Of a stretch of DNA of 64,000 bases, positions 18,443 to 29,724 are shown piece after piece. A program made the translations under genes and the position numbers. Origin of the DNA: a virus. The notes below the pieces were generated by a model. The model was not told the origin of the DNA. It ran no database searches and saw only the letters and a list, made by a program, of their open reading frames with translations. The stretch is from the IMG/VR virus record IMGVR_UViG_3300036790_000366, positions 12,384-76,383 of that record. One strand, 5' to 3'. Position 1 is the stretch's first letter, and each line of letters opens with the position of its first letter.

Positions 18443-19468
18443 TTACGAAACCGGGTTGGCGACGCAGCCGGAAAGGAACGTTCCCAGTTCCGGAGCCGTC
18501 AGCTGGCAGACGTACGAGGCCTCGATCTCGATGCGGTCCGAGGCGATGTGCTCCATGCGGTACTTCTTGATGCGCCCGCCCCACGCGGAGGCACCGAGGT
18601 AGCCATTCCACGCGAAGGTGTAGCCCGCGGACGGGGTGTTCCGGGAGGGACGCGGGGCCGAGTAGATGAGCAGGATTCCGTTGGAGTCCGCCGCGTTGCT
18701 CGCACCGGTGATCCACTGCGTGGTCGGCGCGGTGTCCGCAACGATTTCTTCGTCCTGGTTCGTGGCCTGGACGGCGGACGCCACGAGAACCTGGTCGATG
18801 CCCACGGCACGCGCGATCAGCTGCTCCGTGATGAAGCCCGCCTGCGTGTACTTGATGCGCTCGATGATTTCCGGGTGGTCCAACAGCGCGTTGTACGCGT
18901 TCGCGGAGAAGACCGCGATGTTCGGCATCATGCCGGTGCGCCGCTTGAAACGCAGCATCGCAGCGCGGAACACCTCGATCGGCTGCGAACCCGCCAGGTC
19001 GAACTGCGTGAACTGCGTGGAACTCGGCGAAGTGCTCGCCACGCCGGTGAGGGTTTCTCCCCAGACGCTCGAAGCGAAGTAGGAACTCACCCACTGGAGG
19101 TCGCGCCGGATGAGCAGCTGCTGCGTGATGAGTTCCGTGCCCGCGGTGTCGAACTGAAAATTTGCGTCCGCGTTGGAACGCAGCTGGTCTTCCACGTCGT
19201 AGTGCAGGCCCCACACCTGAGTGGTGTAGGTGTTCTTCGTGAACGTCCAGTCCACACCCGGGGTTTCAGTACCCGGCGCGCGGAGCGCAGCCTGAGACTG
19301 AAGGTAGCTCCTACGGCCGAAGCGGTAGTAGAAGTCGGAGATGTGGTCCACCGGAACGACGGGGAAGACCTTGTCCGCGATGAAGTCCTTGCTCTGCTGC
19401 GCGTAGGCAATCATCACCTGCGTCAGCGGGACCATCACGTGGACGTCGGACGGGCTGATGTTCGGCAC
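18443..19468 (-). CDS. Major capsid protein (HK97 fold, lambda gpE-like family)
   Basis: 'SDVHV..PLT...IAY.Q...FIADKVFPVVPV' and 'PSAGYTFAW'; follows scaffold and decoration genes. Confidence 0.9.
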   Translation of the reverse strand: MPNISPSDVHVMVPLTQVMIAYAQQSKDFIADKVFPVVPVDHISDFYYRFGRRSYLQSQAALRAPGTETPGVDWTFTKNTYTTQVWGLHYDVEDQLRSNADANFQFDTAGTELITQQLLIRRDLQWVSSYFASSVWGETLTGVASTSPSSTQFTQFDLAGSQPIEVFRAAMLRFKRRTGMMPNIAVFSANAYNALLDHPEIIERIKYTQAGFITEQLIARAVGIDQVLVASAVQATNQDEEIVADTAPTTQWITGASNAADSNGILLIYSAPRPSRNTPSAGYTFAWNGYLGASAWGGRIKKYRMEHIASDRIEIEASYVCQLTAPELGTFLSGCVANPVS

Positions 19469-19970: not shown

Positions 19971-21869
19971 TTAGAGGTGCTTGGCTTCCTGGTAGAACTC
20001 GCCCGGGTGCTCCTTCATGTAGTCCACCACGAGCTGTTCCTTGGTGGGGCCGTCCGCGCCGGACTTCGCCACGATGGACTCGGCAGCCGCGTAGGCCTGC
20101 GTCATCTTGGCCTGCATGTCGTCCCCGCCGAGGACCGCTCCGCCGGTCATCCCGTGCTGCTTGAGAACGGTGGAGTCCGACACGATGTTCGCCGAGGCCT
20201 GAAGCATCTGCTCCAGTTCCGCGCCCATCTCCGGGTCGGTCTCGTAGGCGGTGCGCAGCTGCTTGGCGACCTTCGCCTCGTCGTAGCCGGGAATCCCCTT
20301 GAGGTTCCGCGCCTTCCCGATGTACGTGGCGACCTGCTTCTCTTCCAGAAGCTCGTCCAGCCGCGCGAACTTCGCCTTGGTCAGCGCATCCGGCTCGTTC
20401 TCGCCCTGGCCGCCGACGTTCTTGTACAGCTTCTTCTTGCCCACGACGGTTTCCACCTTCTCATTCTTGTTGGCACGGGTGGAGGTCTTCAGCCTCCCCA
20501 TGGAGTTCGTCGCCACCGAATCCATCTTGTCCGCGTCCTCGCCCTCGGACGCCTCGTCGGACATCTCGGAGGCCGGGGAGGCCTTGGCGAGAAGTTCGTA
20601 CACCTCGGATGCGACGGACTCCACCTGAGCGTCCAGCGTTGTGGACTTCGTGATGGAGGAACCGGCGAACCATTCCTGCGCGCCAGCGTTCAGCACGTCC
20701 AGGAAGTCTTCTACCACCGCCGGGTACAGGTCCGGACGGTTCTTCTCGTGGATGGCCGCGAGGTTCTTCGCCAGCCGCACGGACAGGTTCGCCGCCTCCA
20801 CGGCCACGAGGGCCTTCTGCACGTCCTCGGCACTCATGCCCTTGGACTTGTCCAGCGGGTTGTTCGGAGGCGCCACAGCGGTCCTCTGCCGGGTCGTGTG
20901 CTTGCTGTGACCCGTGCCGGTTCCGTTCCGCTTCACCCCCGGCTTGCTATAGATGCCGTCGGAGGTCCCGTGGTCCATGATGTCCAGACCTTCGGAGTTG
21001 GTCTTCTTCTTCCGCGCCTTGCCGATCCGGAGCGCGCGGTTCGCATCGGACATCGTGGATTCCAGCCGTGTCTGCGCCGGGACGGTGGGCTGCGAGTTCT
21101 CGCGGTAGAGCTGCGCCGCGTTCTCGGTCACCGTCTGGCTGCCGCCGTCGGTCAGGTCGTAGGAGTCGAGGCCGGGATTCTTCTTGGCCAGCTTCTTCTT
21201 CTTGCCCAGCGGGGCACGCGACTTGTGCGTGGCCATGGTGGAGTCGGAAGCGTTCGTCGCGGTGTTCTGGAAGCCGCCGCCCTTGTTCGGACGGGTTCCG
21301 GTGGGCTTGGTCTCGGCGAGCGCCTCGATGTCCGAGTCGTCGTCTTCGCCCTCCTTCTCGGATTCCAGGGCCTCGTTGTCCACCGTGTCCACGGACTCGC
21401 CGGTGGCCTTCCCGATTTCCTCGTCGAACCAACCGTCGTTGCTCTTGCTCATCGAAGACCTCTCAACAGAATCCCCCAGCGCTTCGCCGTTCTCCCCGTT
21501 GTCCTGGTCGTACTGCTCGTCCTCGAACGTGTAGCCGCTGGCGTTCGAAGTCGAGTTCGTTGCGTCGTCGTTCTTCGGGGGCTTCTTCGGGTTCGTCACC
21601 GTCTTCGTGACCAGGACCCTGGTCTTGGCCAGATCGGTGGAACCGCAGCGCTTGCACTTGCTGGCACCCTTGGCGTTCATCATGCCGCAGTGGTTGCACT
21701 TGATCTGGCCCATGGCCTTGCGCACGGTGAACGTCTGGGGAGAGTTCCTGCGCAGCCCCTTGTTCTTGGCCAGAAGAATGTCGGCGTGCTCGTTGGCGCC
21801 GTCGCCCACCAGGTCCACCCGGTTGTACTTCATTCCGGTGAGCGCCTGCCGCTTTCGTACCTGCGTCAC
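19971..21869 (-). CDS. Scaffold / head-core protein with Zn ribbon and long charged linker
   Basis: N-terminal 'RVDLVGDGANEHADILLAK' (XkdF-associated motif); CxxC-10-CxxC; C-terminal scaffold-like helices. Confidence 0.7.
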   Translation of the reverse strand: MTQVRKRQALTGMKYNRVDLVGDGANEHADILLAKNKGLRRNSPQTFTVRKAMGQIKCNHCGMMNAKGASKCKRCGSTDLAKTRVLVTKTVTNPKKPPKNDDATNSTSNASGYTFEDEQYDQDNGENGEALGDSVERSSMSKSNDGWFDEEIGKATGESVDTVDNEALESEKEGEDDDSDIEALAETKPTGTRPNKGGGFQNTATNASDSTMATHKSRAPLGKKKKLAKKNPGLDSYDLTDGGSQTVTENAAQLYRENSQPTVPAQTRLESTMSDANRALRIGKARKKKTNSEGLDIMDHGTSDGIYSKPGVKRNGTGTGHSKHTTRQRTAVAPPNNPLDKSKGMSAEDVQKALVAVEAANLSVRLAKNLAAIHEKNRPDLYPAVVEDFLDVLNAGAQEWFAGSSITKSTTLDAQVESVASEVYELLAKASPASEMSDEASEGEDADKMDSVATNSMGRLKTSTRANKNEKVETVVGKKKLYKNVGGQGENEPDALTKAKFARLDELLEEKQVATYIGKARNLKGIPGYDEAKVAKQLRTAYETDPEMGAELEQMLQASANIVSDSTVLKQHGMTGGAVLGGDDMQAKMTQAYAAAESIVAKSGADGPTKEQLVVDYMKEHPGEFYQEAKHL

Positions 21870-22381
21870 AGCGGGATCCTCCTCCCTGTTCCCTGGACCG
21901 AGAACATCTTGTACTTGCCTTTCTTCACACCGTCCCACGCCATCGGGTCGTCGATGTGGAAGCCGGTCCACCACGCGATGGGGAGAACCCCCGAGGGGAT
22001 TCCCATGGCTTTCCACTTCTCCGGGGTGGACACGAAGCTCTCGATGAGAGTCCCCTTGCCGCCCTTGCCGATGTGCTCGGTTCCCTGGTCGCGCCCGTTG
22101 AGGGTGAAGTCGTAGGCCGCGTCCTCGATGTCCTCGACACTTTTGAGGACGTCGCCCTGCCAGTCGGTGTACTCGCGGTACCGCCCGTTGTCCGGAAGAT
22201 ATCCGACGGAAGCCCATCCGAAGACGTTCTGCTTCTCGACGTTGAACTTCTGGATCCGGTGGACGGTACGGAAAGAAAAATCGTCCCGCCCCTTTAGAAC
22301 TCGTCCCTCCATGCTCGGAATTTTCACTCCGACACTTTCGGAAAAGTTCCAGAACTCCTCGTCCGTGATTGTAAGGCCCAT
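21866..22381 (-). CDS. XkdF-like prohead protease
   Basis: 'VFGWASV...DWQGD...IEDAAYDF...EH...LIESFV...WWTGF...W..VK.G.YKMFSVQG'. Confidence 0.8.
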   Translation of the reverse strand: MGLTITDEEFWNFSESVGVKIPSMEGRVLKGRDDFSFRTVHRIQKFNVEKQNVFGWASVGYLPDNGRYREYTDWQGDVLKSVEDIEDAAYDFTLNGRDQGTEHIGKGGKGTLIESFVSTPEKWKAMGIPSGVLPIAWWTGFHIDDPMAWDGVKKGKYKMFSVQGTGRRIPL

Positions 22382-22877: not shown

Positions 22878-23358
22878 CCCGCTCCGCGTTCTTGAACCGG
22901 GCGAGAGCCAGTTCTATGGCCTTGTCCGTCCACGCGTTGGCCAGCAGGTTCCACCGCGTGGTGAGCAGCGACTTCCGGCGTACCTGCACTGCACTGGACC
23001 CGGGATTGTCGCGCGCGTACTGGATCATCACCCGGGACATCTCCGCGCTCAGCCCCAGGGTGAGGCCGCGGATTTTCTTGGCCTCCTCCTGAGAGAAAGT
23101 CAGAAGTACCTGGTCGTTCGTGCGCTTGGCCAGCAGATCCTGCTGCGCCTGCACGACCTGCTCCAGGATCTCCTTGCCCATGTTCCTGTCCTGGAGCAGA
23201 AACGTGGACCCCAGGAAATAGGCCACGTTCGCGTATACCTCGTAGAAGCCCAGCTGGATCGGGCCCATGTCCAGGCTCGGGAAGTTCCGGCAGCCGCGTG
23301 TCGTGGCCAGCCGCATCTTCGACTTCGCGTCGCCTTCTAGTTCCGGTGTCAGGTTCAC
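22828..23358 (-). CDS. Hypothetical helical protein
   Basis: GTG start overlaps the portal stop; normal codon usage. Confidence 0.55.
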   Translation of the reverse strand: MNLTPELEGDAKSKMRLATTRGCRNFPSLDMGPIQLGFYEVYANVAYFLGSTFLLQDRNMGKEILEQVVQAQQDLLAKRTNDQVLLTFSQEEAKKIRGLTLGLSAEMSRVMIQYARDNPGSSAVQVRRKSLLTTRWNLLANAWTDKAIELALARFKNAERGDSLAEPDPVGRSRPR

Positions 23359-25964
23359 TGTGCGATCACCCTCGGGAAGGGAGTGTTCGGGCTCCCGTTG
23401 ACGGGACTGACCTGGTTGTTCGCAGACCATCTGATTTCCGCCTTGGCCTGCGGGACGTGCGCGTTGCAGCAGCGGTGCACGATCGCGTCGCCCTGCATGA
23501 AACGCTGCTTCTCCGGCTTCTGGCAGAAGTCGCACTTCTTCATCGCATACTTCACCGGGACCTGATTGACCGGTGCGCTCTTGGAGACCTTCGCCTCCCA
23601 CCTGTCGCAGACGTCCTCGGAGTCGATCGCCCCCTTCACCAGGGAGCAGCCGTGCGGGCCGCGGAACATGACGCAGTTCCCGCACTTCCGGGAACCGATG
23701 GCCGGGCGGTATCGGACGTCCTGCTTGGACATCTTCAGCCGCTTGGCCAGGGCGGCACTCGAATCCGGGTCGTCGCTGGTGTACTGCTGCGCGTGCATCT
23801 CGTCCCAGGGACCCGTGTTCTGTTCCACGTGCGCCACGTAGGTGGGGGCCGGGTAGCCCAGCCCGTGATAGGCCATGTAGTGGTGGTGGCCGTCCACGAT
23901 CCTCAGCTTGTTGGAACCGGGAACCCGCACCGCGACGATCGGCTTGTGCTTGCCCTCCTTGATCTCCTTGGAGAAGTCCTTCACCTTCTCCGGTTCGTGG
24001 GAGGCCGCCCAGGACTTCTGGTCCGCGGTGTCGAACATCTCCGTGGGGACCATCTCCGGGCCGGTCCACACCGCGTCCTTCATCCACTTCATGGACGACT
24101 TCGGGAAGTCGGAGGACATCTGCTTCTTCACGCGCTTGCGCACGCCGACGGTGTCCTGCGGCGCGATGTGCTTGGCCACGGAGCGGTTCTTCAGTCCGCC
24201 GGTGGACTTCGCCGGGGCGTTCTGCGCCGCCCTCGTGGAGATGGTGGCCCGCCGTGCCGCCGGGGGCTGCTTCGACTTCACCGGACCGGTGGACTTCGTC
24301 GGAGCGCCCGGCTTGGAGCCCTTCTGCTTCCCGCCGGACCCGACCGTCTTCGCCGCCCGGTTCGTCGCGGTCGCCTGCGCCGCGCCCTTGGCCGGTGCGT
24401 TGGCGCCCGTGGAGGGGGCACCAGGGGCCGCACCCGCCGCCCCGGCCGGTGGCTTAAGGGTGACCGGGTCCATGCGCTCCACGATGCTTCCCTGGGGCGC
24501 GGGGACCACACCTTCCGCGTTCGCGTCCCTCGCGGTGCGCTGCGCCATGTCCTGCTCCGCGGAGGAACTGGCCAGCATCGTGTCCAGCTGCTGGTTGATG
24601 ATTTTCTCTTCGATGCCCTCGTTGACCGGGTTGCTCTCCCGGATCGGGAGCTTCGCGAACTCCCGCAGGTGGTTCTCCAGCTCGCTGTCCGGGAACAGCT
24701 GGGCACCGGCACCGGCCATGGCGGAGATCAGGGTGGCCAGGTCGGTGAGCGTCGGCTTCTGCACGATGTCGTGCCGGAGCTTCGGGTAGGGGCCGTTGTT
24801 GATTCCGTTCATCCGGAACAGCAGCGGGATGGCCCGGTTGTTTATCTCGTTCTCGATGTCGTTCAGGAAGGTTTCCAGGGCGGACTGGAACATGCTGGCC
24901 TTGGAGGTGGACAGCGCGTAGGAGCCGTTGTTCGTGGCGTCGTTCCCCAGCAGGAGGAAGTCGGCCAGAACCGTCATGGCGATGCGGGACTCGTACCGGC
25001 TGATGATTTCCTGCGTGGGGAACTGCCGGGAGCCGCCGGAGGTCAGGAGCTTGAACGTGTAGAGCTCGTGGCCCGCCGCGTCGTACGCCTGCGGCCAGAC
25101 GATGCCCTCCTGCTCGTCCCGCCGGACGTTCTGCACCAGCTTGACGACCGAGGCCACCATGGCCTGATCCGCCTCGCTGGCGTTCTCCCCCAGCATCTCC
25201 GCGGGAACCGTGGCGATCGGGATACCGGCCAGGTCGCGCTCTACGCCGATGGCCTCGATCTCTTCGATCCGCTTCAGGAAGTACCAGGAGCGGTAGGCCG
25301 TGCGCAGGACGGAGACGCCTTCCGGGTTGTCCTTCCAGGACTTCGTCCGGAAGTGCAGCGACTTCCCCAGCGGAAGATACCGCTCCGAGTAGTCGGGCGC
25401 GGGGCGCTGCCACATGCCGATCGTCTTGCCGGAGACCGGGGAGAAGTCCCACCTCCACCAGGATTCCTGAGCGATCGGCATGAACTTCTGCCAGCCGATC
25501 AGCCCGTCGTTCCACTGGGACGCGGTGGTGCCGAATTCGTCGATGACATCGTTGAAGCGCTGCTTGTAGCAGATCTCGAACCAGGACCACCCGTACGGCA
25601 GCATCGAGTTGACTTCGGAGATGAAGTCGGGCCAGCTCATCTCCATGTCGTCCCGGCACGAGGCGAGGAACTTGGCGCGCTCCTTGTCCACCTTCGATTC
25701 GCTGGCCGCCTCCTCGCGCCACAGCACCTTGCGCATGAACATGTCGATGGCGAACAAGACGGCGCCGATGACGGAGGAGTTCTGGGACATCTCCTGGTAG
25801 ACGCTGACGGCCTTGCGGCCCATCAGCTGCGGGAGAAGTTCCTCGTAGATGTAGCCGTACGATCGCTTCAGGCCGCTCTGACCGAACTGTACGGCACCGA
25901 GACCCATCCGCGGTTCGGCGCCGGTAAGCGTGGGTGTCTTCCTCACCTTCAACTTCTGCGCCAC
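23355..25964 (-). CDS. Portal protein (DUF935 / Mu gp29-like) with C-terminal ParB, HiPIP-like and Zn modules
   Basis: 'DNPEGVSVLRTAYRSWYF', 'IGVERDLAGIP', 'IAMTVLADFLLLG...GSYALS'; follows TerL. Confidence 0.9.
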   Translation of the reverse strand: MAQKLKVRKTPTLTGAEPRMGLGAVQFGQSGLKRSYGYIYEELLPQLMGRKAVSVYQEMSQNSSVIGAVLFAIDMFMRKVLWREEAASESKVDKERAKFLASCRDDMEMSWPDFISEVNSMLPYGWSWFEICYKQRFNDVIDEFGTTASQWNDGLIGWQKFMPIAQESWWRWDFSPVSGKTIGMWQRPAPDYSERYLPLGKSLHFRTKSWKDNPEGVSVLRTAYRSWYFLKRIEEIEAIGVERDLAGIPIATVPAEMLGENASEADQAMVASVVKLVQNVRRDEQEGIVWPQAYDAAGHELYTFKLLTSGGSRQFPTQEIISRYESRIAMTVLADFLLLGNDATNNGSYALSTSKASMFQSALETFLNDIENEINNRAIPLLFRMNGINNGPYPKLRHDIVQKPTLTDLATLISAMAGAGAQLFPDSELENHLREFAKLPIRESNPVNEGIEEKIINQQLDTMLASSSAEQDMAQRTARDANAEGVVPAPQGSIVERMDPVTLKPPAGAAGAAPGAPSTGANAPAKGAAQATATNRAAKTVGSGGKQKGSKPGAPTKSTGPVKSKQPPAARRATISTRAAQNAPAKSTGGLKNRSVAKHIAPQDTVGVRKRVKKQMSSDFPKSSMKWMKDAVWTGPEMVPTEMFDTADQKSWAASHEPEKVKDFSKEIKEGKHKPIVAVRVPGSNKLRIVDGHHHYMAYHGLGYPAPTYVAHVEQNTGPWDEMHAQQYTSDDPDSSAALAKRLKMSKQDVRYRPAIGSRKCGNCVMFRGPHGCSLVKGAIDSEDVCDRWEAKVSKSAPVNQVPVKYAMKKCDFCQKPEKQRFMQGDAIVHRCCNAHVPQAKAEIRWSANNQVSPVNGSPNTPFPRVIAQ

Positions 25965-25971
25965 TTTTTCC

Positions 25972-27387
25972 TCAAATCTTCCAGGGTGAAGTCTCACGGG
26001 TGATGGAGATCACGCTCGTGTTCCTGTTCGCGTTCCGCTTCCGTGCCGACCATGCCAGCGCGGTGGAGGCGATGGTGTCCGGCAGGTGGGAAGAGGTGCC
26101 GACGTTGTACAGGTCGTCCGCGGTGACCAGACGGAAGTCGTCGTACATCGAGATGATACGCGGGGACAGGAAGTTGTGGCTTTCCACCCCGTGCACGAAC
26201 TCGGTGATCATGTCTGTGCGGATCTTGCCGTTCATGGAGATCTCGGTCAGGTTGTCCCGCACGGTTCCCGGGGGATAGACGATGTAGTCGCTGACCACCG
26301 CACCGACACCGGTCGCGTCGGAGACCACGTCGCCGCCGTACATGGCCCAGCGCTTGTTCAACCGACCGATCAGAACATCCCATGGCCTCTTGTTTATCTT
26401 CTCGAACGCCGCCATCTTCCACTGCCCCACCGTGACGTCCCAGGTGGTGATGACCGTGAAGTCCCGCGACTTCGCCCAGTCCACCCCGGTCACGTAGTCG
26501 CGGTCCGGCCGTGGCTTCATGAACTGGTAGAACATCCCGTCCTCGCCCTTGACGATGTCCCACCGCGGATCGAACATCTTCTCCACGGCTTCTTCGTCCA
26601 GCGCACGGCCTTCGAAGTTCGGTTCAAGGATGTCGTATTCGTTCCGCCACATCTGGGCAGGGATTTCGAGGCGCTTGCGCTCGATCTCCTCGGGGTCCAG
26701 CCATCCGTCCACCGGGTTCGAGGTTTCCTTGTAGCACCACGAGTAGACAGGGAAACCCTTCTCCGCGAACTCTCTCTTGTAGTAGGTGACCGGACCGTCC
26801 GGGTAGGTGTGCGTGCTGGAGAAGACGGTGGAAGTCTCGATCCTCTCCCCGGTGAGCATCGACTTCCCGCGCATGGGCTGGCCGAGGGCGGCTTGGACGA
26901 TGCTCAGGTCCGCCTCGTCGATCTCGTCGATCCGCAGACGGGAAGGGTGGGGGCCACGCACGGAGGTCTGCGAGGCCATGAGGGTTCGGGCCTTTCCTCC
27001 GTTCGTGAGAACCGTGTCGAACTTCGTCGGAGACTTCTCCAGCAGATACTTCGGTGCCCGCGGTGCGTGCCACAGGGCGTTCATGGATTCCTGCACGCGC
27101 ATGGCCTGCGCGCCGGAGCCGCCGAGGATCGAGACGAACGCACCGAGGTAGGTGAGCTCCATCATGCCCAGCAGCGACATGGTGAAGGTCTTGCCGGAGA
27201 AGCCACGAGAGCCGAGCCACATCGCCTGAGGACTTCTCGCGAAGAACGCGTTGCAGAAAGCCTCGAACGGTGTGTCGTGGTTCAGACACACCTTAGTCCG
27301 TGGAATCTTCACACCCCACGTGGCGAGCACGGCGTACCAGAGTTCCGCGTCCGTCTGCGGTGGCCTCTGGATGACGAAGTCGGTCAC
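25972..27387 (-). CDS. terL: Terminase large subunit
   Basis: Walker A 'GSRGFSGKT', Walker B 'LRIDE', 'SST' coupling motif, nuclease 'GVDWAKSRD', 'DATGVG', 'HLPD'. Confidence 0.93.
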   Translation of the reverse strand: MTDFVIQRPPQTDAELWYAVLATWGVKIPRTKVCLNHDTPFEAFCNAFFARSPQAMWLGSRGFSGKTFTMSLLGMMELTYLGAFVSILGGSGAQAMRVQESMNALWHAPRAPKYLLEKSPTKFDTVLTNGGKARTLMASQTSVRGPHPSRLRIDEIDEADLSIVQAALGQPMRGKSMLTGERIETSTVFSSTHTYPDGPVTYYKREFAEKGFPVYSWCYKETSNPVDGWLDPEEIERKRLEIPAQMWRNEYDILEPNFEGRALDEEAVEKMFDPRWDIVKGEDGMFYQFMKPRPDRDYVTGVDWAKSRDFTVITTWDVTVGQWKMAAFEKINKRPWDVLIGRLNKRWAMYGGDVVSDATGVGAVVSDYIVYPPGTVRDNLTEISMNGKIRTDMITEFVHGVESHNFLSPRIISMYDDFRLVTADDLYNVGTSSHLPDTIASTALAWSARKRNANRNTSVISITRETSPWKI

Positions 27388-28299: not shown

Positions 28300-28421
28300 T
28301 GACCCCCGCTCTTCTTCTGCACGGGCTTGGGAACGCGCTTCACGGCCGTCTGCGCCTTGCGCGCCCGCTTCCCCTTGGTGCCAGCCGCAGCGCGGCGGGC
28401 CGATCGAGCGTTAGTCCCCAT
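28296..28421 (-). CDS. Small basic peptide, 41 aa (not in ORF track)
   Basis: MGTNARSARRAAAGTKGKRARKAQTAVKRVPKPVQKKSGGQ; overlaps both neighbours at start and stop. Confidence 0.55.
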   Translation of the reverse strand: MGTNARSARRAAAGTKGKRARKAQTAVKRVPKPVQKKSGGQ

Positions 28422-29724
28422 CCTCTTCGAATCCTCTCGTCCGCTTCTTGGAGCGAGTCTGCCGCTGCCCCTTCACCGTGGTCCCGGAGTCCAGAAGTTC
28501 TCTGCGCCGGTTGGTCCGAGTCTCCACCCGCACGACTTCCGCGTCCAGACCGGCACGCTTCACCACTTCGTCCGCGTCGGTGTGCCCGTAGACGAGGATC
28601 TGGCCGAAACCTATTTTCTCTTCCGCCTTCTTCAGCAACCGGGCGGTGGTGCGGATCCTGTCCTGGTCCCCGCGGATCGTCTGGATCTGCGTGGCCACCA
28701 GCGGTGCGCCCTCCGGAATGCATTCCAGGCACAGTTCCAGGGCCTCGTCGCTGCCGCCGTACTGGATGTCCGGGATGACCAGGAACCCGGCTTCCTGCCA
28801 GTACCTCGCCACGTACGCGCTGCGGTAGGCGGACCAGATCCACAGAGCAGGGGGCCAGCCCTGGTTCACAGAATAGTTCGGCATGATGCAGGTGGTGATC
28901 CCGCAGTTCATTATCTTCTTGGTGTTCTCCGCGGGGTCGGTGTACAGACCTTCGAAGTGGAAGTCCTCCGTGTACAGGCTGAGGATGGCGCGCTCGAACG
29001 GAATCCCGCGGTTGCCCGTGTGCCACTGGGAAACCCACCACTGATCCTTGTCGGGGACCCGGTCGCCGTCGATCTCGACACCGCCCCACATGTCCAGCTT
29101 CTCCGGCAGCCGGTCCGGAATCCGGTCGAGGCGAAGTTCCGGGATGCCGTAGTTCTTGTCCGACTCGAACAGCACATAGCGGCTCAGGTCTTCGACGCCG
29201 TCCAGGTCGGACGGAGCTTCTTCGATGGAGTCGATGGAGTCGATCGGGTTCCTGTTCATCTCCACCAGGAGTTTGCCCAGGACGTCATCGCTGTACGTGG
29301 TGCCGATCAGATGGCCGGTCTGCTTCTTCTGGTCCTCCAGAAGCTGGGCGAGAAGACCCGGGTCGTAGGTGGCGTCGTCGGTGGAACCGTTGTCGGCCAG
29401 CACGATGCGGCGGGCGTGGTCGTCGTCCACGTCCACCCATGCCACTTTTATCTTCTTCCAGCCCAGGGACTTGGCCGCCTTGGCGGTGTGGTTACCGGCC
29501 AGTATCTCGTTCTCCCGGCCGGTCTTCGTTCCGCGGTTCACCACGATCGGCTTGAACTGGCTGTTGGACCGCAGGCTCTCGGCGACCTTTTCCAGGTTCC
29601 CCACCCGCGGGTTCTGGTGGTAGTACTTCAGCCCGCGGAGCTGCACCTCTTCGTAGTCCAGTTCCAGCGGGCCGGTGTCGCAGGGCGATTCAGACACGCT
29701 CTTCTTCAACTTTTTTACGGCCAC
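28411..29724 (-). CDS. ParB-N / DUF4417 fusion protein
   Basis: ParB 'NPRVGN...PIVVN...ILAGNHT.KAA...LADN'; DUF4417 'DFHFEGL...PNYSV...W..YRS...ARYWQ..G..VIP'. Confidence 0.75.
   Translation of the reverse strand: MAVKKLKKSVSESPCDTGPLELDYEEVQLRGLKYYHQNPRVGNLEKVAESLRSNSQFKPIVVNRGTKTGRENEILAGNHTAKAAKSLGWKKIKVAWVDVDDDHARRIVLADNGSTDDATYDPGLLAQLLEDQKKQTGHLIGTTYSDDVLGKLLVEMNRNPIDSIDSIEEAPSDLDGVEDLSRYVLFESDKNYGIPELRLDRIPDRLPEKLDMWGGVEIDGDRVPDKDQWWVSQWHTGNRGIPFERAILSLYTEDFHFEGLYTDPAENTKKIMNCGITTCIMPNYSVNQGWPPALWIWSAYRSAYVARYWQEAGFLVIPDIQYGGSDEALELCLECIPEGAPLVATQIQTIRGDQDRIRTTARLLKKAEEKIGFGQILVYGHTDADEVVKRAGLDAEVVRVETRTNRRRELLDSGTTVKGQRQTRSKKRTRGFEEDGD

What the first reader, a model, noticed from the sequence alone, without database searches (positions are those of the whole stretch)
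23355..24480. Portal carries ~370 aa of cargo: basic linker, ParB domain, HiPIP-like 4-Cys domain and Zn finger
Seen: after the portal core come an Ala/Lys/Pro linker, a ParB/Srx domain (KPIVAV...LRIVDGHHHYMAY, ~24118-23775), then KMSKQDVRY...CGNC..F.....C..VKGAI....VCDRW (~23735-23590), then CDFC...CC..H. Established: the 4-Cys spacing matches small high-potential iron-sulfur proteins. A 4Fe-4S module on a portal is very unusual. Inference: these are internal head proteins made as a portal polyprotein and released or ejected, or a redox/DNA-sensing appendage of the motor.
Basis: partly seen in the sequence, partly recalled or inferred. Interest (0 to 1): 0.72.

Follow-up and report, generated by a model that had tools for sequence, protein, structure and literature searches.

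The report
Phage portal carrying a HiPIP-fold module
An uncultured soil phage makes its portal protein as one chain with a basic linker, a ParB/sulfiredoxin-like domain, a small domain that has the fold and cysteine ligands of high-potential iron-sulfur proteins, and a zinc knuckle. The same iron-sulfur-like module recurs on portals, MuF proteins, prohead proteases and injected-effector domains of many other uncultured phages, which points to a metal-cluster domain inside phage heads that no paper I could search describes.

Summary
Window 23355-25964(-) is one continuous Mu-type portal gene. Its last ~375 residues are a +20 linker with an invariant motif, a ParB/Srx-fold domain (VIA Z 9.3; canonical Arg replaced by His), a 54-residue HiPIP-fold module (C-x2-C-x8-C-x12-C) and a C2CH zinc knuckle followed by an invariant terminal peptide.

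The fusion is not an artefact. About 20 diverged homologues keep it. 66-76 kb contigs from two other soil studies span it without frame-breaking indels, and 22 of 23 listed tail substitutions are at third codon positions.

The HiPIP call is strong. A family profile hits only HiPIPs in the PDB (PioC, E 3.6e-9). The AF2 model (pLDDT 95) matches only HiPIP-fold [4Fe-4S] proteins.

The module is optional and mobile. It is missing from 6 of 15 close portals. Elsewhere it sits inside P22-type portals, on HK97-type portals, MuF and prohead proteases, next to NUDIX, 2H and ART domains, and as ~55-residue signal-less proteins near terminase genes.

Best reading: portal-tethered, head-internal cargo of the known "polyvalent/packaged effector" kind, with a previously undiscussed Fe-S-type accessory module. 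Cluster binding, cleavage and ejection are untested.

The parts
23355..25964 (-). Whole portal-cargo gene. The likely start is GTG 25964 and the longest ORF starts at 25997. The stop codon is 23355-23357.
   Evidence: Continuous ORF. GAGGA lies 5 nt upstream of GTG 25964, and homologues start at the equivalent MAQKLKVRK. Independent 66-76 kb soil contigs span it with no frame-breaking indels.
24483..25964 (-). Mu-type portal core (residues 12-505)
   Evidence: PF06074 E 1.6e-21, 77.5 bits against a cutoff of 23.9. phrog_113 portal, E 1.1e-70.
24120..24482 (-). Basic Ala/Gly/Pro/Lys linker (residues 506-626, net charge +20). It contains the invariant motif GGKQKGSxPGAPTKSTGPVKS (24273-24335).
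   Evidence: Composition. Motif invariant in 15 homologues. All 16 listed substitutions between 24120 and 24482, against the relatives' contigs, are at third codon positions.
23748..24119 (-). ParB/sulfiredoxin-fold domain (residues 627-750; folded part about 633-739). The motif is IVDGHHH, with His where the canonical DGHHR has Arg.
   Evidence: AF2 pLDDT about 90. Foldseek top hits are all ParB/Srx superfamily, prob 1.0. VIA: Srx 6ky4 Z 9.3, PadC Z 9.1, KorB 7.9, SerK 6.9. Weak sequence hits: phrog_1033 E 0.005, 1vk1 E 0.04. Relative P0027 (41% identical) reaches PF02195 at E 3.7e-5.
23586..23747 (-). HiPIP-fold module (residues 751-804). Cys772, Cys775, Cys784 and Cys797 are the predicted [4Fe-4S] ligands.
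   Evidence: PioC 6xyv E 0.005 with the single sequence and E 3.6e-9 with the family profile; only HiPIPs are hit. AF2 pLDDT 94.9. Foldseek: all 18 hits are HiPIPs, TM 0.71-0.78. VIA: only 11 of 48,161 chains reach Z>=2, and all are HiPIPs or the HiPIP-like [4Fe-4S] small subunits of glycyl-radical enzymes.
23457..23534 (-). C2CH zinc knuckle (C822, C825, C844, H847) within the C-terminal domain (residues 805-861)
   Evidence: These four residues are invariant in 15 homologues and C843 is not. AF2 pLDDT about 88, beta-hairpins followed by a helix. Only weak fold matches (Z<=3.5), among them C1, zf-HIT and B-box zinc domains.
23358..23432 (-). Nearly invariant C-terminal peptide RW..NNQVSPVN..P..PFPRV.[TA]Q (residues 856-880). 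Its last ~19 residues are predicted disordered. Candidate docking motif.
   Evidence: Invariant or near-invariant columns. pLDDT below 50 for tail residues 236-254. Retained in short forms P0025 and P0027.
21866..22381 (-). Head maturation protease gene. It is context only: a candidate enzyme for releasing the cargo.
   Evidence: phrog_3017 and phrog_33677, head maturation protease, E 2.6e-9 and 1.4e-6.

Best explanation
The gene encodes a Mu-type portal whose C-terminus carries a modular cargo. In every solved portal the C-terminus leaves the crown on the capsid-lumen side (established knowledge). The portal dodecamer would therefore place twelve copies of the cargo inside the head, next to the DNA.

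The cargo has five parts:
- a +20-charged linker;
- a ParB/Srx-fold nucleotide- or DNA-binding domain;
- an optional HiPIP-fold module predicted to hold a [4Fe-4S] cluster on Cys772, 775, 784 and 797;
- a C2CH zinc knuckle;
- an invariant terminal peptide.

I read it as a portal-tethered member of the phage 'polyvalent / head-packaged effector' class of Iyer et al. In that reading, fusion to the portal is the loading device. The cargo acts on DNA or nucleotides at the portal, or after release by the adjacent head protease during DNA delivery (inferred).

The HiPIP module is an oxygen-tolerant Fe-S accessory domain that travels with nucleotide-processing domains (ParB/Srx, NUDIX, 2H, ART). It most likely stabilises the neighbouring domain or gates it by redox state: oxidised in the aerobic virion, reduced in the cytoplasm (inferred, weakest step).

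Shown: the domain identities, that the fusion is real and conserved, and the module's mobility and partners. Inferred: lumen location, cluster binding, cleavage or ejection, and the redox role.
For: Fusion real and under selection:
- 21 homologues of 832-1206 aa carry the same tail; all but two (P0020, P0022) have a PF06074 portal on record.
- Contigs of 66-76 kb from two other soil studies span the gene, with one in-frame insert.
- 35 of 39 listed substitutions are at third codon positions, and 22 of 23 in the tail.

HiPIP identity.

ParB/Srx fold.

Modularity:
- The HiPIP module is missing from 6 of 15 close portals.
- NUDIX is inserted beside it in P0008, P0014 and P0015. The same ParB-NUDIX-HiPIP set sits on a MuF protein (P0020).
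- L003 encodes a portal-MuF-NUDIX-ParB-HiPIP protein of 1487 aa.

Partner census of 50 multidomain homologues: NUDIX 12, portal 9, MuF 6, 2H 4, ART 3, XkdF protease 1.

Other settings:
- The module is inserted inside P22-type portals.
- BFVD phage proteins with the fold include XkdF, prohead protease, SppA, ParB/Srx and zeta-toxin fusions.
- Stand-alone ParB-HiPIP proteins exist: P0175, P0176 and P0178.
- Small stand-alone copies lie near TerL.
- A protease gene lies downstream.

Literature: portal/MuF fusions to NUDIX, ART, 2H and ParB are interpreted as packaged, injected effectors (PMC5512222, PMC9503650).
Against: - There is no direct evidence that any cluster is bound.
- The window's own module misses the Pfam thresholds: no PF01355 hit, and DUF7140 scores 14.6 bits against a cutoff of 27.
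- A portal-fused cargo can be ejected only if it is cleaved, and no cleavage site is identified.
- In P22-type portals the module is an internal insertion that cannot be released. This argues that at least there it works in place, at the portal.
- The ParB-like domain lacks the canonical Arg (DGHHH), so it may be catalytically inactive.
- The window protein carries no recognised toxin or effector enzyme domain.
Confidence: 0.55

Rival explanations
1. The tail is a permanent part of the packaging and retention machinery, not a delivered effector. The basic linker, ParB-like domain and zinc knuckle would hold or sense the packaged DNA end at the portal crown. The HiPIP module would be a structural or DNA-sensing element that stays on the portal.
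For: - The module is an internal, non-releasable insertion in P22-type portals.
- The ParB-Zn tail core is invariant, while the 'effector-like' inserts (HiPIP, NUDIX) are optional.
- The linker carries +20 net charge.
- The canonical catalytic Arg is replaced by His.
- The HiPIP module is itself basic, +6 over 54 residues.
Against: - The same module and the same ParB domain occur on MuF proteins, next to NUDIX, ART, 2H and zeta-toxin enzymes, and as free proteins. That is the pattern of exchangeable effectors, not of a motor part.
- Six of 15 close portals do without the HiPIP module.
Confidence: 0.25
2. The 4-Cys module keeps the HiPIP fold but binds zinc, a single iron or nothing. It would be only a compact cysteine-stapled spacer or adaptor domain.
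For: - No Tat signal and no electron-transfer partners are evident.
- Pfam HiPIP thresholds are not met by the window's copy.
- HiPIP-fold small subunits of benzylsuccinate synthase show that the fold can serve a non-carrier accessory role.
Against: - All four ligand cysteines are kept in about 145 of 150 homologues, together with the cluster-packing positions shared with solved HiPIPs: Tyr upstream 142/145, L-V-x-G-x-I 130/145, C-x-x-aromatic 143/145.
- Every structural match, including the benzylsuccinate synthase subunits, is a [4Fe-4S] protein.
- The HiPIP ligand geometry does not suit a single tetrahedral Zn site (established knowledge; not measured on the model).
Confidence: 0.15
3. Assembly or annotation artefact: the portal really ends after the core, and the tail is a separate gene or a chimeric join.
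For: High-GC DNA gives long spurious ORFs in several frames. Short ParB-Zn or ParB-HiPIP proteins exist elsewhere.
Against: - Independent assemblies from two other studies span core, linker and tail on 66-76 kb contigs without frame-breaking indels.
- 22 of 23 listed tail substitutions are at third positions of the portal frame.
- About 20 homologues at 37-91% tail identity keep one ORF.
Confidence: 0.01
4. Auxiliary metabolic gene: the HiPIP serves as a soluble electron carrier that supplements host photosynthetic or respiratory electron transfer.
For: Its closest solved relative is PioC, a periplasmic electron carrier. A cyanophage carries a stand-alone copy.
Against: - None of the 12 small homologues inspected (82-108 aa) has an N-terminal signal peptide. 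A twin-arginine motif scan of all 98 hits under 130 aa flagged only seven ~55-65-aa proteins that have no room for one.
- Here the module is embedded in a portal chain.
- Its partners are head-assembly proteins and nucleotide-processing enzymes.
Confidence: 0.03

Closest known systems
PioC and other bacterial high-potential iron-sulfur proteins (PDB 6xyv, 1isu, 3h31; PMC7462912)
   Same: Same size (54 residues). Same spacing as PioC, C-x2-C-x8-C-x12-C. Shared conserved Tyr, C-x-L-V-x-G-x-I and C-x-x-W positions. Same predicted fold: TM 0.71-0.78, VIA Z 7.4.
   Different: No Tat signal and not periplasmic. Here it is a domain within phage head proteins, or a free cytoplasmic ~55-residue phage protein. 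No electron-transfer partner is evident. Cluster and potential are unmeasured.
Portal/MuF-fused and 'polyvalent' head-packaged effectors of phages (Iyer et al. 2017, PMC5512222; Iyer et al. 2022, PMC9503650)
   Same: Effector-type domains (ParB, NUDIX, ART, 2H) are fused to portal or MuF, encoded in the late head module, and show mosaic domain shuffling.
   Different: Those papers contain no mention of HiPIP, iron-sulfur or Fe-S. The window protein has no overt toxin or enzyme effector beyond a ParB-like domain with an altered motif.
DdrB-like ParB domains of phage P1-type head proteins, and the ParB/Srx superfamily (Srx 6ky4, PadC 6ryk, SerK 5x0b)
   Same: ParB/Srx fold (Z 6.9-9.3). DGHH motif at the end of strand 2. 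Head-gene context.
   Different: The canonical Arg is replaced by His in 14 of 15 portal-fused members. No Pfam ParB hit for the window copy. Specific membership in the DdrB-like clade was not tested.
HiPIP-like [4Fe-4S] small subunits of benzylsuccinate synthase and related glycyl-radical enzymes (PDB 4pkf, 9pzj, 2y8n)
   Same: A HiPIP fold used as an accessory module of a larger assembly, not as a free electron carrier (Z 3.2-4.1).
   Different: More distant than true HiPIPs. Unrelated enzymology. Not viral.
Pfam DUF7140 (PF23601) and UniProt's automatic 'HiPIP family profile domain-containing protein' label on Synechococcus phage S-SRM01 A0A879R316
   Same: Probably the same module. 12 of 41 stand-alone homologues hit DUF7140 (best E 1.2e-7). 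The S-SRM01 protein matches the model at TM 0.89.
   Different: These are database labels only. No paper mentions DUF7140, and the S-SRM01 genome paper does not mention the protein's HiPIP nature.

Membership tests
High-potential iron-sulfur protein (HiPIP; PF01355 / PROSITE profile) | Four cysteine ligands in the pattern C-x2-C-x(8-16)-C-x(12-13)-C | tested here: met
   C772, C775, C784 and C797 have the same spacing as PioC. The x12 spacing between the third and fourth Cys is kept in nearly all of the ~145 homologues that show the pattern.
High-potential iron-sulfur protein (HiPIP; PF01355 / PROSITE profile) | Significant sequence similarity to solved HiPIPs, including the cluster-packing residues | tested here: met
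   The family profile A2 hits only HiPIPs: PioC 3.6e-9, 3h31 2e-6, 1isu 1.3e-3, 1hlq 1.7e-3. The single sequence hits PioC at E 0.005.
High-potential iron-sulfur protein (HiPIP; PF01355 / PROSITE profile) | HiPIP fold | tested here: met
   AF2 pLDDT 94.9. All 18 Foldseek hits are HiPIPs. All 11 chains with VIA Z>=2 are HiPIP-fold [4Fe-4S] proteins, with a top Z of 7.4.
High-potential iron-sulfur protein (HiPIP; PF01355 / PROSITE profile) | Pfam PF01355 gathering score | tested here: not met
   No PF01355 hit at E<=1 for the window's module. 9 of 41 stand-alone homologues hit it (best E 9.2e-5).
High-potential iron-sulfur protein (HiPIP; PF01355 / PROSITE profile) | Exported (Tat) soluble periplasmic electron carrier | tested here: not met
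   The module is embedded in a portal chain. The 12 inspected small homologues show no signal peptide.
High-potential iron-sulfur protein (HiPIP; PF01355 / PROSITE profile) | Binds a [4Fe-4S] cluster that cycles 2+/3+ at positive potential | not testable with these tools
   Needs expression, UV-vis or EPR, metal analysis and voltammetry.
ParB/sulfiredoxin superfamily | ParB/Srx alpha+beta fold | tested here: met
   VIA: Srx Z 9.3, PadC 9.1, KorB 7.9, pNOB8 ParB 7.3, SerK 6.9. Foldseek prob about 1.0.
ParB/sulfiredoxin superfamily | Conserved active-site arginine (DGHHR / GxxR motif) | tested here: not met
   The window has DGHHH. His is found in 14 of 15 portal-fused homologues. Arg is kept in P0021, P0027 and P0175/P0176/P0178.
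ParB/sulfiredoxin superfamily | Pfam ParB_N (PF02195) gathering score | tested here: not met
   No hit for the window tail. The 41%-identical relative P0027 scores 24.1 bits against a cutoff of 26.3.
Mu-type phage portal (PF06074) | Profile match above the gathering score, in a terminase/head gene context | tested here: met
   77.5 bits against 23.9. phrog_113 E 1.1e-70. Protease and major head protein genes lie downstream.
Polyvalent / head-packaged effector proteins (Iyer et al. 2017) | Several unrelated domains in one chain, fused to a virion-incorporation domain (portal/MuF), encoded among late head genes, with mosaic architecture among relatives | tested here: met
Polyvalent / head-packaged effector proteins (Iyer et al. 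2017) | Packaged in the head and delivered into the host with the DNA | not testable with these tools
   Needs virion proteomics and infection assays. The phage is uncultured.
Treble-clef / knuckle-type zinc finger | Four invariant Zn ligands | tested here: met
   C822, C825, C844 and H847 are invariant in 15 sequences.
Treble-clef / knuckle-type zinc finger | Fold match to a known zinc-finger class | tested here: inconclusive
   Only Z<=3.5 matches, which include C1, zf-HIT and B-box domains.

The most novel reading that the evidence does not exclude
The HiPIP-fold module is a genuine [4Fe-4S] domain carried inside tailed-phage heads. It would act as a redox switch: oxidised (3+) in the air-exposed virion and reduced (2+) on entry to the cytoplasm, and this change would license the neighbouring ParB/NUDIX/ART-type domains or DNA release. 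That would be the first Fe-S cluster shown in a tailed-phage virion protein, and a new way for a virion to sense that it has reached a host.
Probability: 0.15. Interest if true: 0.85.

Novelty: new variant of a known kind. Interest (0 to 1): 0.64.

Why it matters
Portal and MuF fusions to effector domains are a known theme. None of the literature I could search describes an iron-sulfur-type domain among them.

If the module binds a cluster, phage heads would carry redox-active metal centres next to the packed DNA. HiPIP is the one [4Fe-4S] fold known to tolerate oxygen, which is what a particle that survives in aerated soil would need.

The module is widespread: 403 representative clusters at E<=1e-3. 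It attaches independently to three portal families, to MuF and to prohead proteases. It was absent from 185,579 species genomes at the pattern level. These features mark it as a virus-specific building block with a head-linked function that is not yet understood.

It also gives DUF7140 a fold and a testable cofactor prediction, and it names a cultured test case, the 67-residue protein of Synechococcus phage S-SRM01.

Tried and rejected
- Pfam on the 374- and 130-residue tails gave no family at E<=1. PHROGs gave only weak ParB hits.
- tblastn of the tail and megablast of the locus against 50,697 GenBank phages gave no match. The 54-residue module alone gave only a weak hit, in Synechococcus phage S-SRM01.
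The contexts of the stand-alone homologues could therefore be read only for the few found in IMG/VR.
With the tail protein it returned only 3 loci.
That pattern samples only part of the family.
- The same pattern in genome contigs gave 4 hits, all chance matches without the family's other conserved residues.
- The ESM Atlas search on the C-terminal domain gave nothing informative.
- In the tail model the HiPIP stretch had low pLDDT because the alignment was shallow there. The dedicated model was used instead.
- P0171 (610 aa, MMPL), listed in the cluster of P0035, lacks the module and is a clustering artefact.
- P0024 and P0025 look like contig-edge fragments. P0027 (209 aa, on a 981-nt contig) may or may not be a complete stand-alone gene.
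- No RNA holder was listed among the sequencing runs.
- The motifs of the linker and the terminal peptide occur nowhere else in the window, so no shared cleavage or targeting motif was found.
- I could not read model coordinates, so the Cys S-gamma distances were not measured.


Full report
**Where the window comes from**

The window is bases 12384-76383 of a 76,383-base IMG/VR virus record. Soil-metagenome runs hold the stretch. Independent assemblies give contigs of 75,725, 75,777 and 66,352 bases, so the genome is probably about 76 kb.

Genes around the finding lie on the minus strand:
- a 471-residue ORF upstream where a terminase is expected (no PHROG or Pfam hit);
- the portal gene;
- two small ORFs;
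- a head maturation protease (21866-22381);
- a long zinc-ribbon-bearing ORF;
- the major head protein (18443-19468, phrog_1005).

A separate ParB_N-DUF4417 gene lies at 28411-29724.

**The observation**

The ORF 23355..25997(-) is open for 880 codons. The real start is probably GTG 25964 (residue 12). GAGGA lies just upstream, the upstream ORF ends at 25972, and the homologues begin at the equivalent MAQKLKVRK.

Residues 65-434 match PF06074 Portal_Mu (77.5 bits). Residues 34-516 match phrog_113.

After the core come five parts:
- a 121-residue Ala/Gly/Pro/Lys linker with net charge +20;
- the KPIVAV...LRIVDGHHHY segment;
- the segment KMSKQDVRY...CGNC..F.....C..VKGAI....VCDRW, with Cys at 772, 775, 784 and 797;
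- CDFC...CC..H;
- a proline-rich end.

Two refinements come from a 15-sequence alignment. First, the zinc ligands are C822, C825, C844 and H847; C843 varies. Second, the 'linker' is not only low-complexity sequence, because it holds an invariant motif, GGKQKGSxPGAPTKSTGPVKS.

**Is the fusion real?**

Yes, on three grounds.
- A word-indexed search with residues 627-880 found 21 proteins of 832-1206 residues with 37-91% tail identity. All but two (P0020, P0022) carry a PF06074 portal, and several sit on contigs of 48-77 kb.
- Logan contigs from two further soil studies span core, linker and tail. The only length change is one in-frame insert of about 66 nt between the HiPIP module and the zinc domain.
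- Of the 39 listed substitutions inside the ORF, 35 are at third codon positions. In the tail the figure is 22 of 23, including every one in the linker. The whole tail is therefore translated in the portal frame and is under purifying selection.

**The HiPIP-like module**

*Sequence.*
- The tail's best match among all PDB sequences is PioC, the 54-residue HiPIP of Rhodopseudomonas palustris. E is 0.005 over the whole chain, with all four Cys aligned and identical spacing.
- An exhaustive phmmer search of 1.84 billion representatives with residues 745-880 gave 403 hits at E<=1e-3. Nearly all of them match residues 755-803.
- Among the best 150 hits, 74 are proteins of 80 residues or fewer and 52 are multidomain proteins of 140-2076 residues.
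- An alignment of the window module with 40 stand-alone homologues has invariant K, Y, four C, V, G and I.
- The profile of that alignment hits only HiPIPs in the PDB: PioC 3.6e-9, Rhodothermus 3h31 2e-6, 1isu 1.3e-3, 1hlq 1.7e-3, then 1eyt and 1cku. The aligned motifs are C-x-N-C, C-x-L-[VI]-x-G-x-I and C-x-x-W.

*Structure.*
- AlphaFold2 on this alignment gives pLDDT 94.9.
- All 18 Foldseek PDB matches are HiPIPs, with TM 0.71-0.78 and rmsd 1.4 A to 1isu.
- VIA-align against 48,161 chains finds only 11 with Z>=2. Seven are HiPIPs (Z 5.5-7.4). Four are the HiPIP-like [4Fe-4S] small subunits of benzylsuccinate synthase and related glycyl-radical enzymes.

*What is not met.*
- Pfam thresholds are not reached by the window's copy. 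DUF7140 gives E 0.032, and there is no PF01355 hit.
- 12 and 9 of the 41 aligned sequences hit DUF7140 and PF01355 respectively.
- The 12 small homologues I inspected show no signal peptide.

So this is a signal-less, PioC-sized branch of the HiPIP fold. Cluster binding is predicted, not shown.

**ParB/Srx-like domain and C-terminal domain**

The AF2 model of residues 627-880 is confident for tail residues about 7-113 and 181-235.

The first part is a ParB/Srx fold:
- VIA gives Arabidopsis sulfiredoxin Z 9.3, PadC 9.1, KorB 7.9, human Srx 7.7, pNOB8 ParB-N 7.3, free serine kinase 6.9 and SbnI 6.2.
- All Foldseek top hits belong to the same superfamily.
- Sequence evidence is weak: phrog_1033 E 0.005 and 1vk1 E 0.04.
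- The canonical DGHHR arginine is His in 14 of 15 portal-fused members. Arg is kept in P0021, in the short protein P0027 (which reaches PF02195 at E 3.7e-5) and in the stand-alone ParB-HiPIP proteins.

The C-terminal domain is built of beta-hairpins followed by a helix around the C2CH site. It has only weak fold matches (Z<=3.5), and C1, zf-HIT and B-box zinc domains are among them. Its last ~19 residues are predicted disordered, yet they are almost invariant (NNQVSPVN..P..PFPRV.[TA]Q). That is the signature of a docking peptide; this reading is an inference.

**The module is optional and mobile**

Within the close portal family, 6 of 15 members lack the HiPIP module and carry an unrelated segment in its place. 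Other members have a NUDIX domain inserted between ParB and HiPIP (P0008, P0014, P0015) or after HiPIP (P0019).

The same ParB-NUDIX-HiPIP set sits on a MuF protein (P0020). A NUDIX-HiPIP pair sits in an ADP-ribosyltransferase protein (P0022).

Other large carriers:
- HK97/SPP1-type portals (PF04860), with or without MuF and NUDIX: P0052, P0056, P0057;
- an Arr-type ADP-ribosyltransferase: P0032;
- a 1487-residue portal-MuF-NUDIX-ParB-HiPIP protein in L003.

A Pfam census of 50 multidomain homologues gives NUDIX 12, portals 9 (three Pfam families), MuF 6, 2H phosphoesterase 4, ARTs 3, histidine phosphatase 2 and XkdF-type prohead protease 1.

A back-translated DNA pattern for the module found 11 loci in IMG/VR, and all 11 are genuine. 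In five of them the module is inserted inside a P22-type portal (PF16510, E about 1e-157). The insertion lies between the blocks that align to Sf6 gp3 residues about 235 and about 283. Two small stand-alone copies lie within about 1.3 and 3 kb of a large-terminase gene.

BFVD holds phage proteins with the same predicted fold. They are fused to XkdF, prohead proteases, an SppA-type protease, ParB/Srx, zeta-toxin, HAD and helicase domains, and there is also a 67-residue protein of Synechococcus phage S-SRM01.

Stand-alone ParB-HiPIP proteins of about 230 residues exist, two of them on 9-kb contigs.

By contrast:
- the same DNA pattern gave only four hits in 185,579 species genomes, and all four are chance matches;
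- GenBank phages gave only the S-SRM01 hit.

The module therefore looks virus-specific, largely confined to uncultured phages, and tied to proteins that live inside the procapsid.

**How it most likely works**

In solved portal structures the C-terminal crown faces the capsid lumen (established knowledge). A C-terminal extension therefore places twelve copies of the cargo inside the head.

The literature already interprets portal or MuF fusions to NUDIX, ART, 2H, PBECR and ParB domains as proteins loaded into the head and delivered with the DNA (PMC5512222, PMC9503650). The partner spectrum found here is exactly that set.

I therefore read the tail as portal-tethered, head-internal cargo of this kind. 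It is loaded by fusion, and it could be released by the neighbouring head protease (inferred; no cleavage site is identified).

For the HiPIP module itself I propose an oxygen-tolerant [4Fe-4S] accessory domain that stabilises or redox-gates the adjacent nucleotide-processing domain. HiPIPs cycle 2+/3+ at +50 to +500 mV (PMC7462912), so the cluster could be oxidised in an aerated virion and reduced in the cytoplasm. This is the weakest step.

The main rival is that the tail never leaves the portal and instead works in DNA retention or sensing. The non-releasable insertion in P22-type portals and the altered ParB motif favour that view.

**Comparison and novelty**

Three elements are known: portal/MuF-effector fusions, ParB domains in polyvalent head proteins, and HiPIPs.

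What I could not find in any searchable paper is a HiPIP or Fe-S domain in this network.
- The two key Aravind-lab papers contain no 'HiPIP', 'iron-sulfur' or 'Fe-S'.
- 'DUF7140' appears in no paper.
- The combinations of HiPIP with phage and virion terms gave nothing relevant.
- The S-SRM01 genome paper does not mention it.

Databases do carry automatic labels: the UniProt HiPIP-profile name on two phage proteins, and Pfam DUF7140. The module is therefore seen but not interpreted.

I class the finding as a new variant of a known kind. An earlier first-stage note of this scan on the same stretch (e1-6067525) made the same domain calls.

Noticed in passing
window 25964-25997: The longest portal ORF starts at GTG 25997 and overlaps the upstream ORF's end (25972). 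GTG 25964 has a GAGGA Shine-Dalgarno and matches the homologues' N-termini, so the portal is probably 869 residues. IMG called an 850-residue version (P0172).
   Followed up: partly
window 23579-23585 (between the HiPIP module and the zinc domain): Close relatives in other soil metagenomes carry an in-frame insert of about 66 nt here (P0002 has about 24 extra residues). Together with the NUDIX inserts and the HiPIP-less variants, this marks the ParB-Zn interval as a hot spot for module exchange.
   Followed up: partly
window 25972-27387 (-): The 471-residue ORF directly upstream of the portal, where a large terminase is expected, has no PHROG hit at E<=1e-3 and no Pfam hit at E<=0.1.
   Followed up: no
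window 19971-22217 (-) and 21866-22381 (-): A 748-codon ORF with a CxxC...CxxC zinc-ribbon (weak Pfam Zn_Ribbon hits) and long acidic/basic low-complexity stretches overlaps the 171-residue head-protease ORF. It may be a scaffold-like protein with a downstream start.
   Followed up: no
window 28411-29724 (-): A second, unrelated ParB_N domain, fused to DUF4417 (phrog_940 'nuclease'), lies two genes upstream of the packaging genes.
   Followed up: partly
L008 1898-4747, L013 4125-6893, L015 3249-6098 (IMG/VR contigs): P22-type portal proteins (PF16510) carry an insertion of about 100-140 residues that contains the HiPIP-like module, between the N-terminal and stem/clip-proximal blocks. A metal-cluster-type domain would then be built into the portal body itself.
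   Followed up: partly
L009 8271-12722 (IMG/VR contig): A 1483-residue protein combines portal (PF04860), NUDIX, the HiPIP-like module, MuF and an intein splicing domain.
   Followed up: no
whole record: CheckV rates the 76,383-base record 62% complete. Independent assemblies repeatedly end at about 75.7 kb, which suggests the genome is essentially complete.
   Followed up: no
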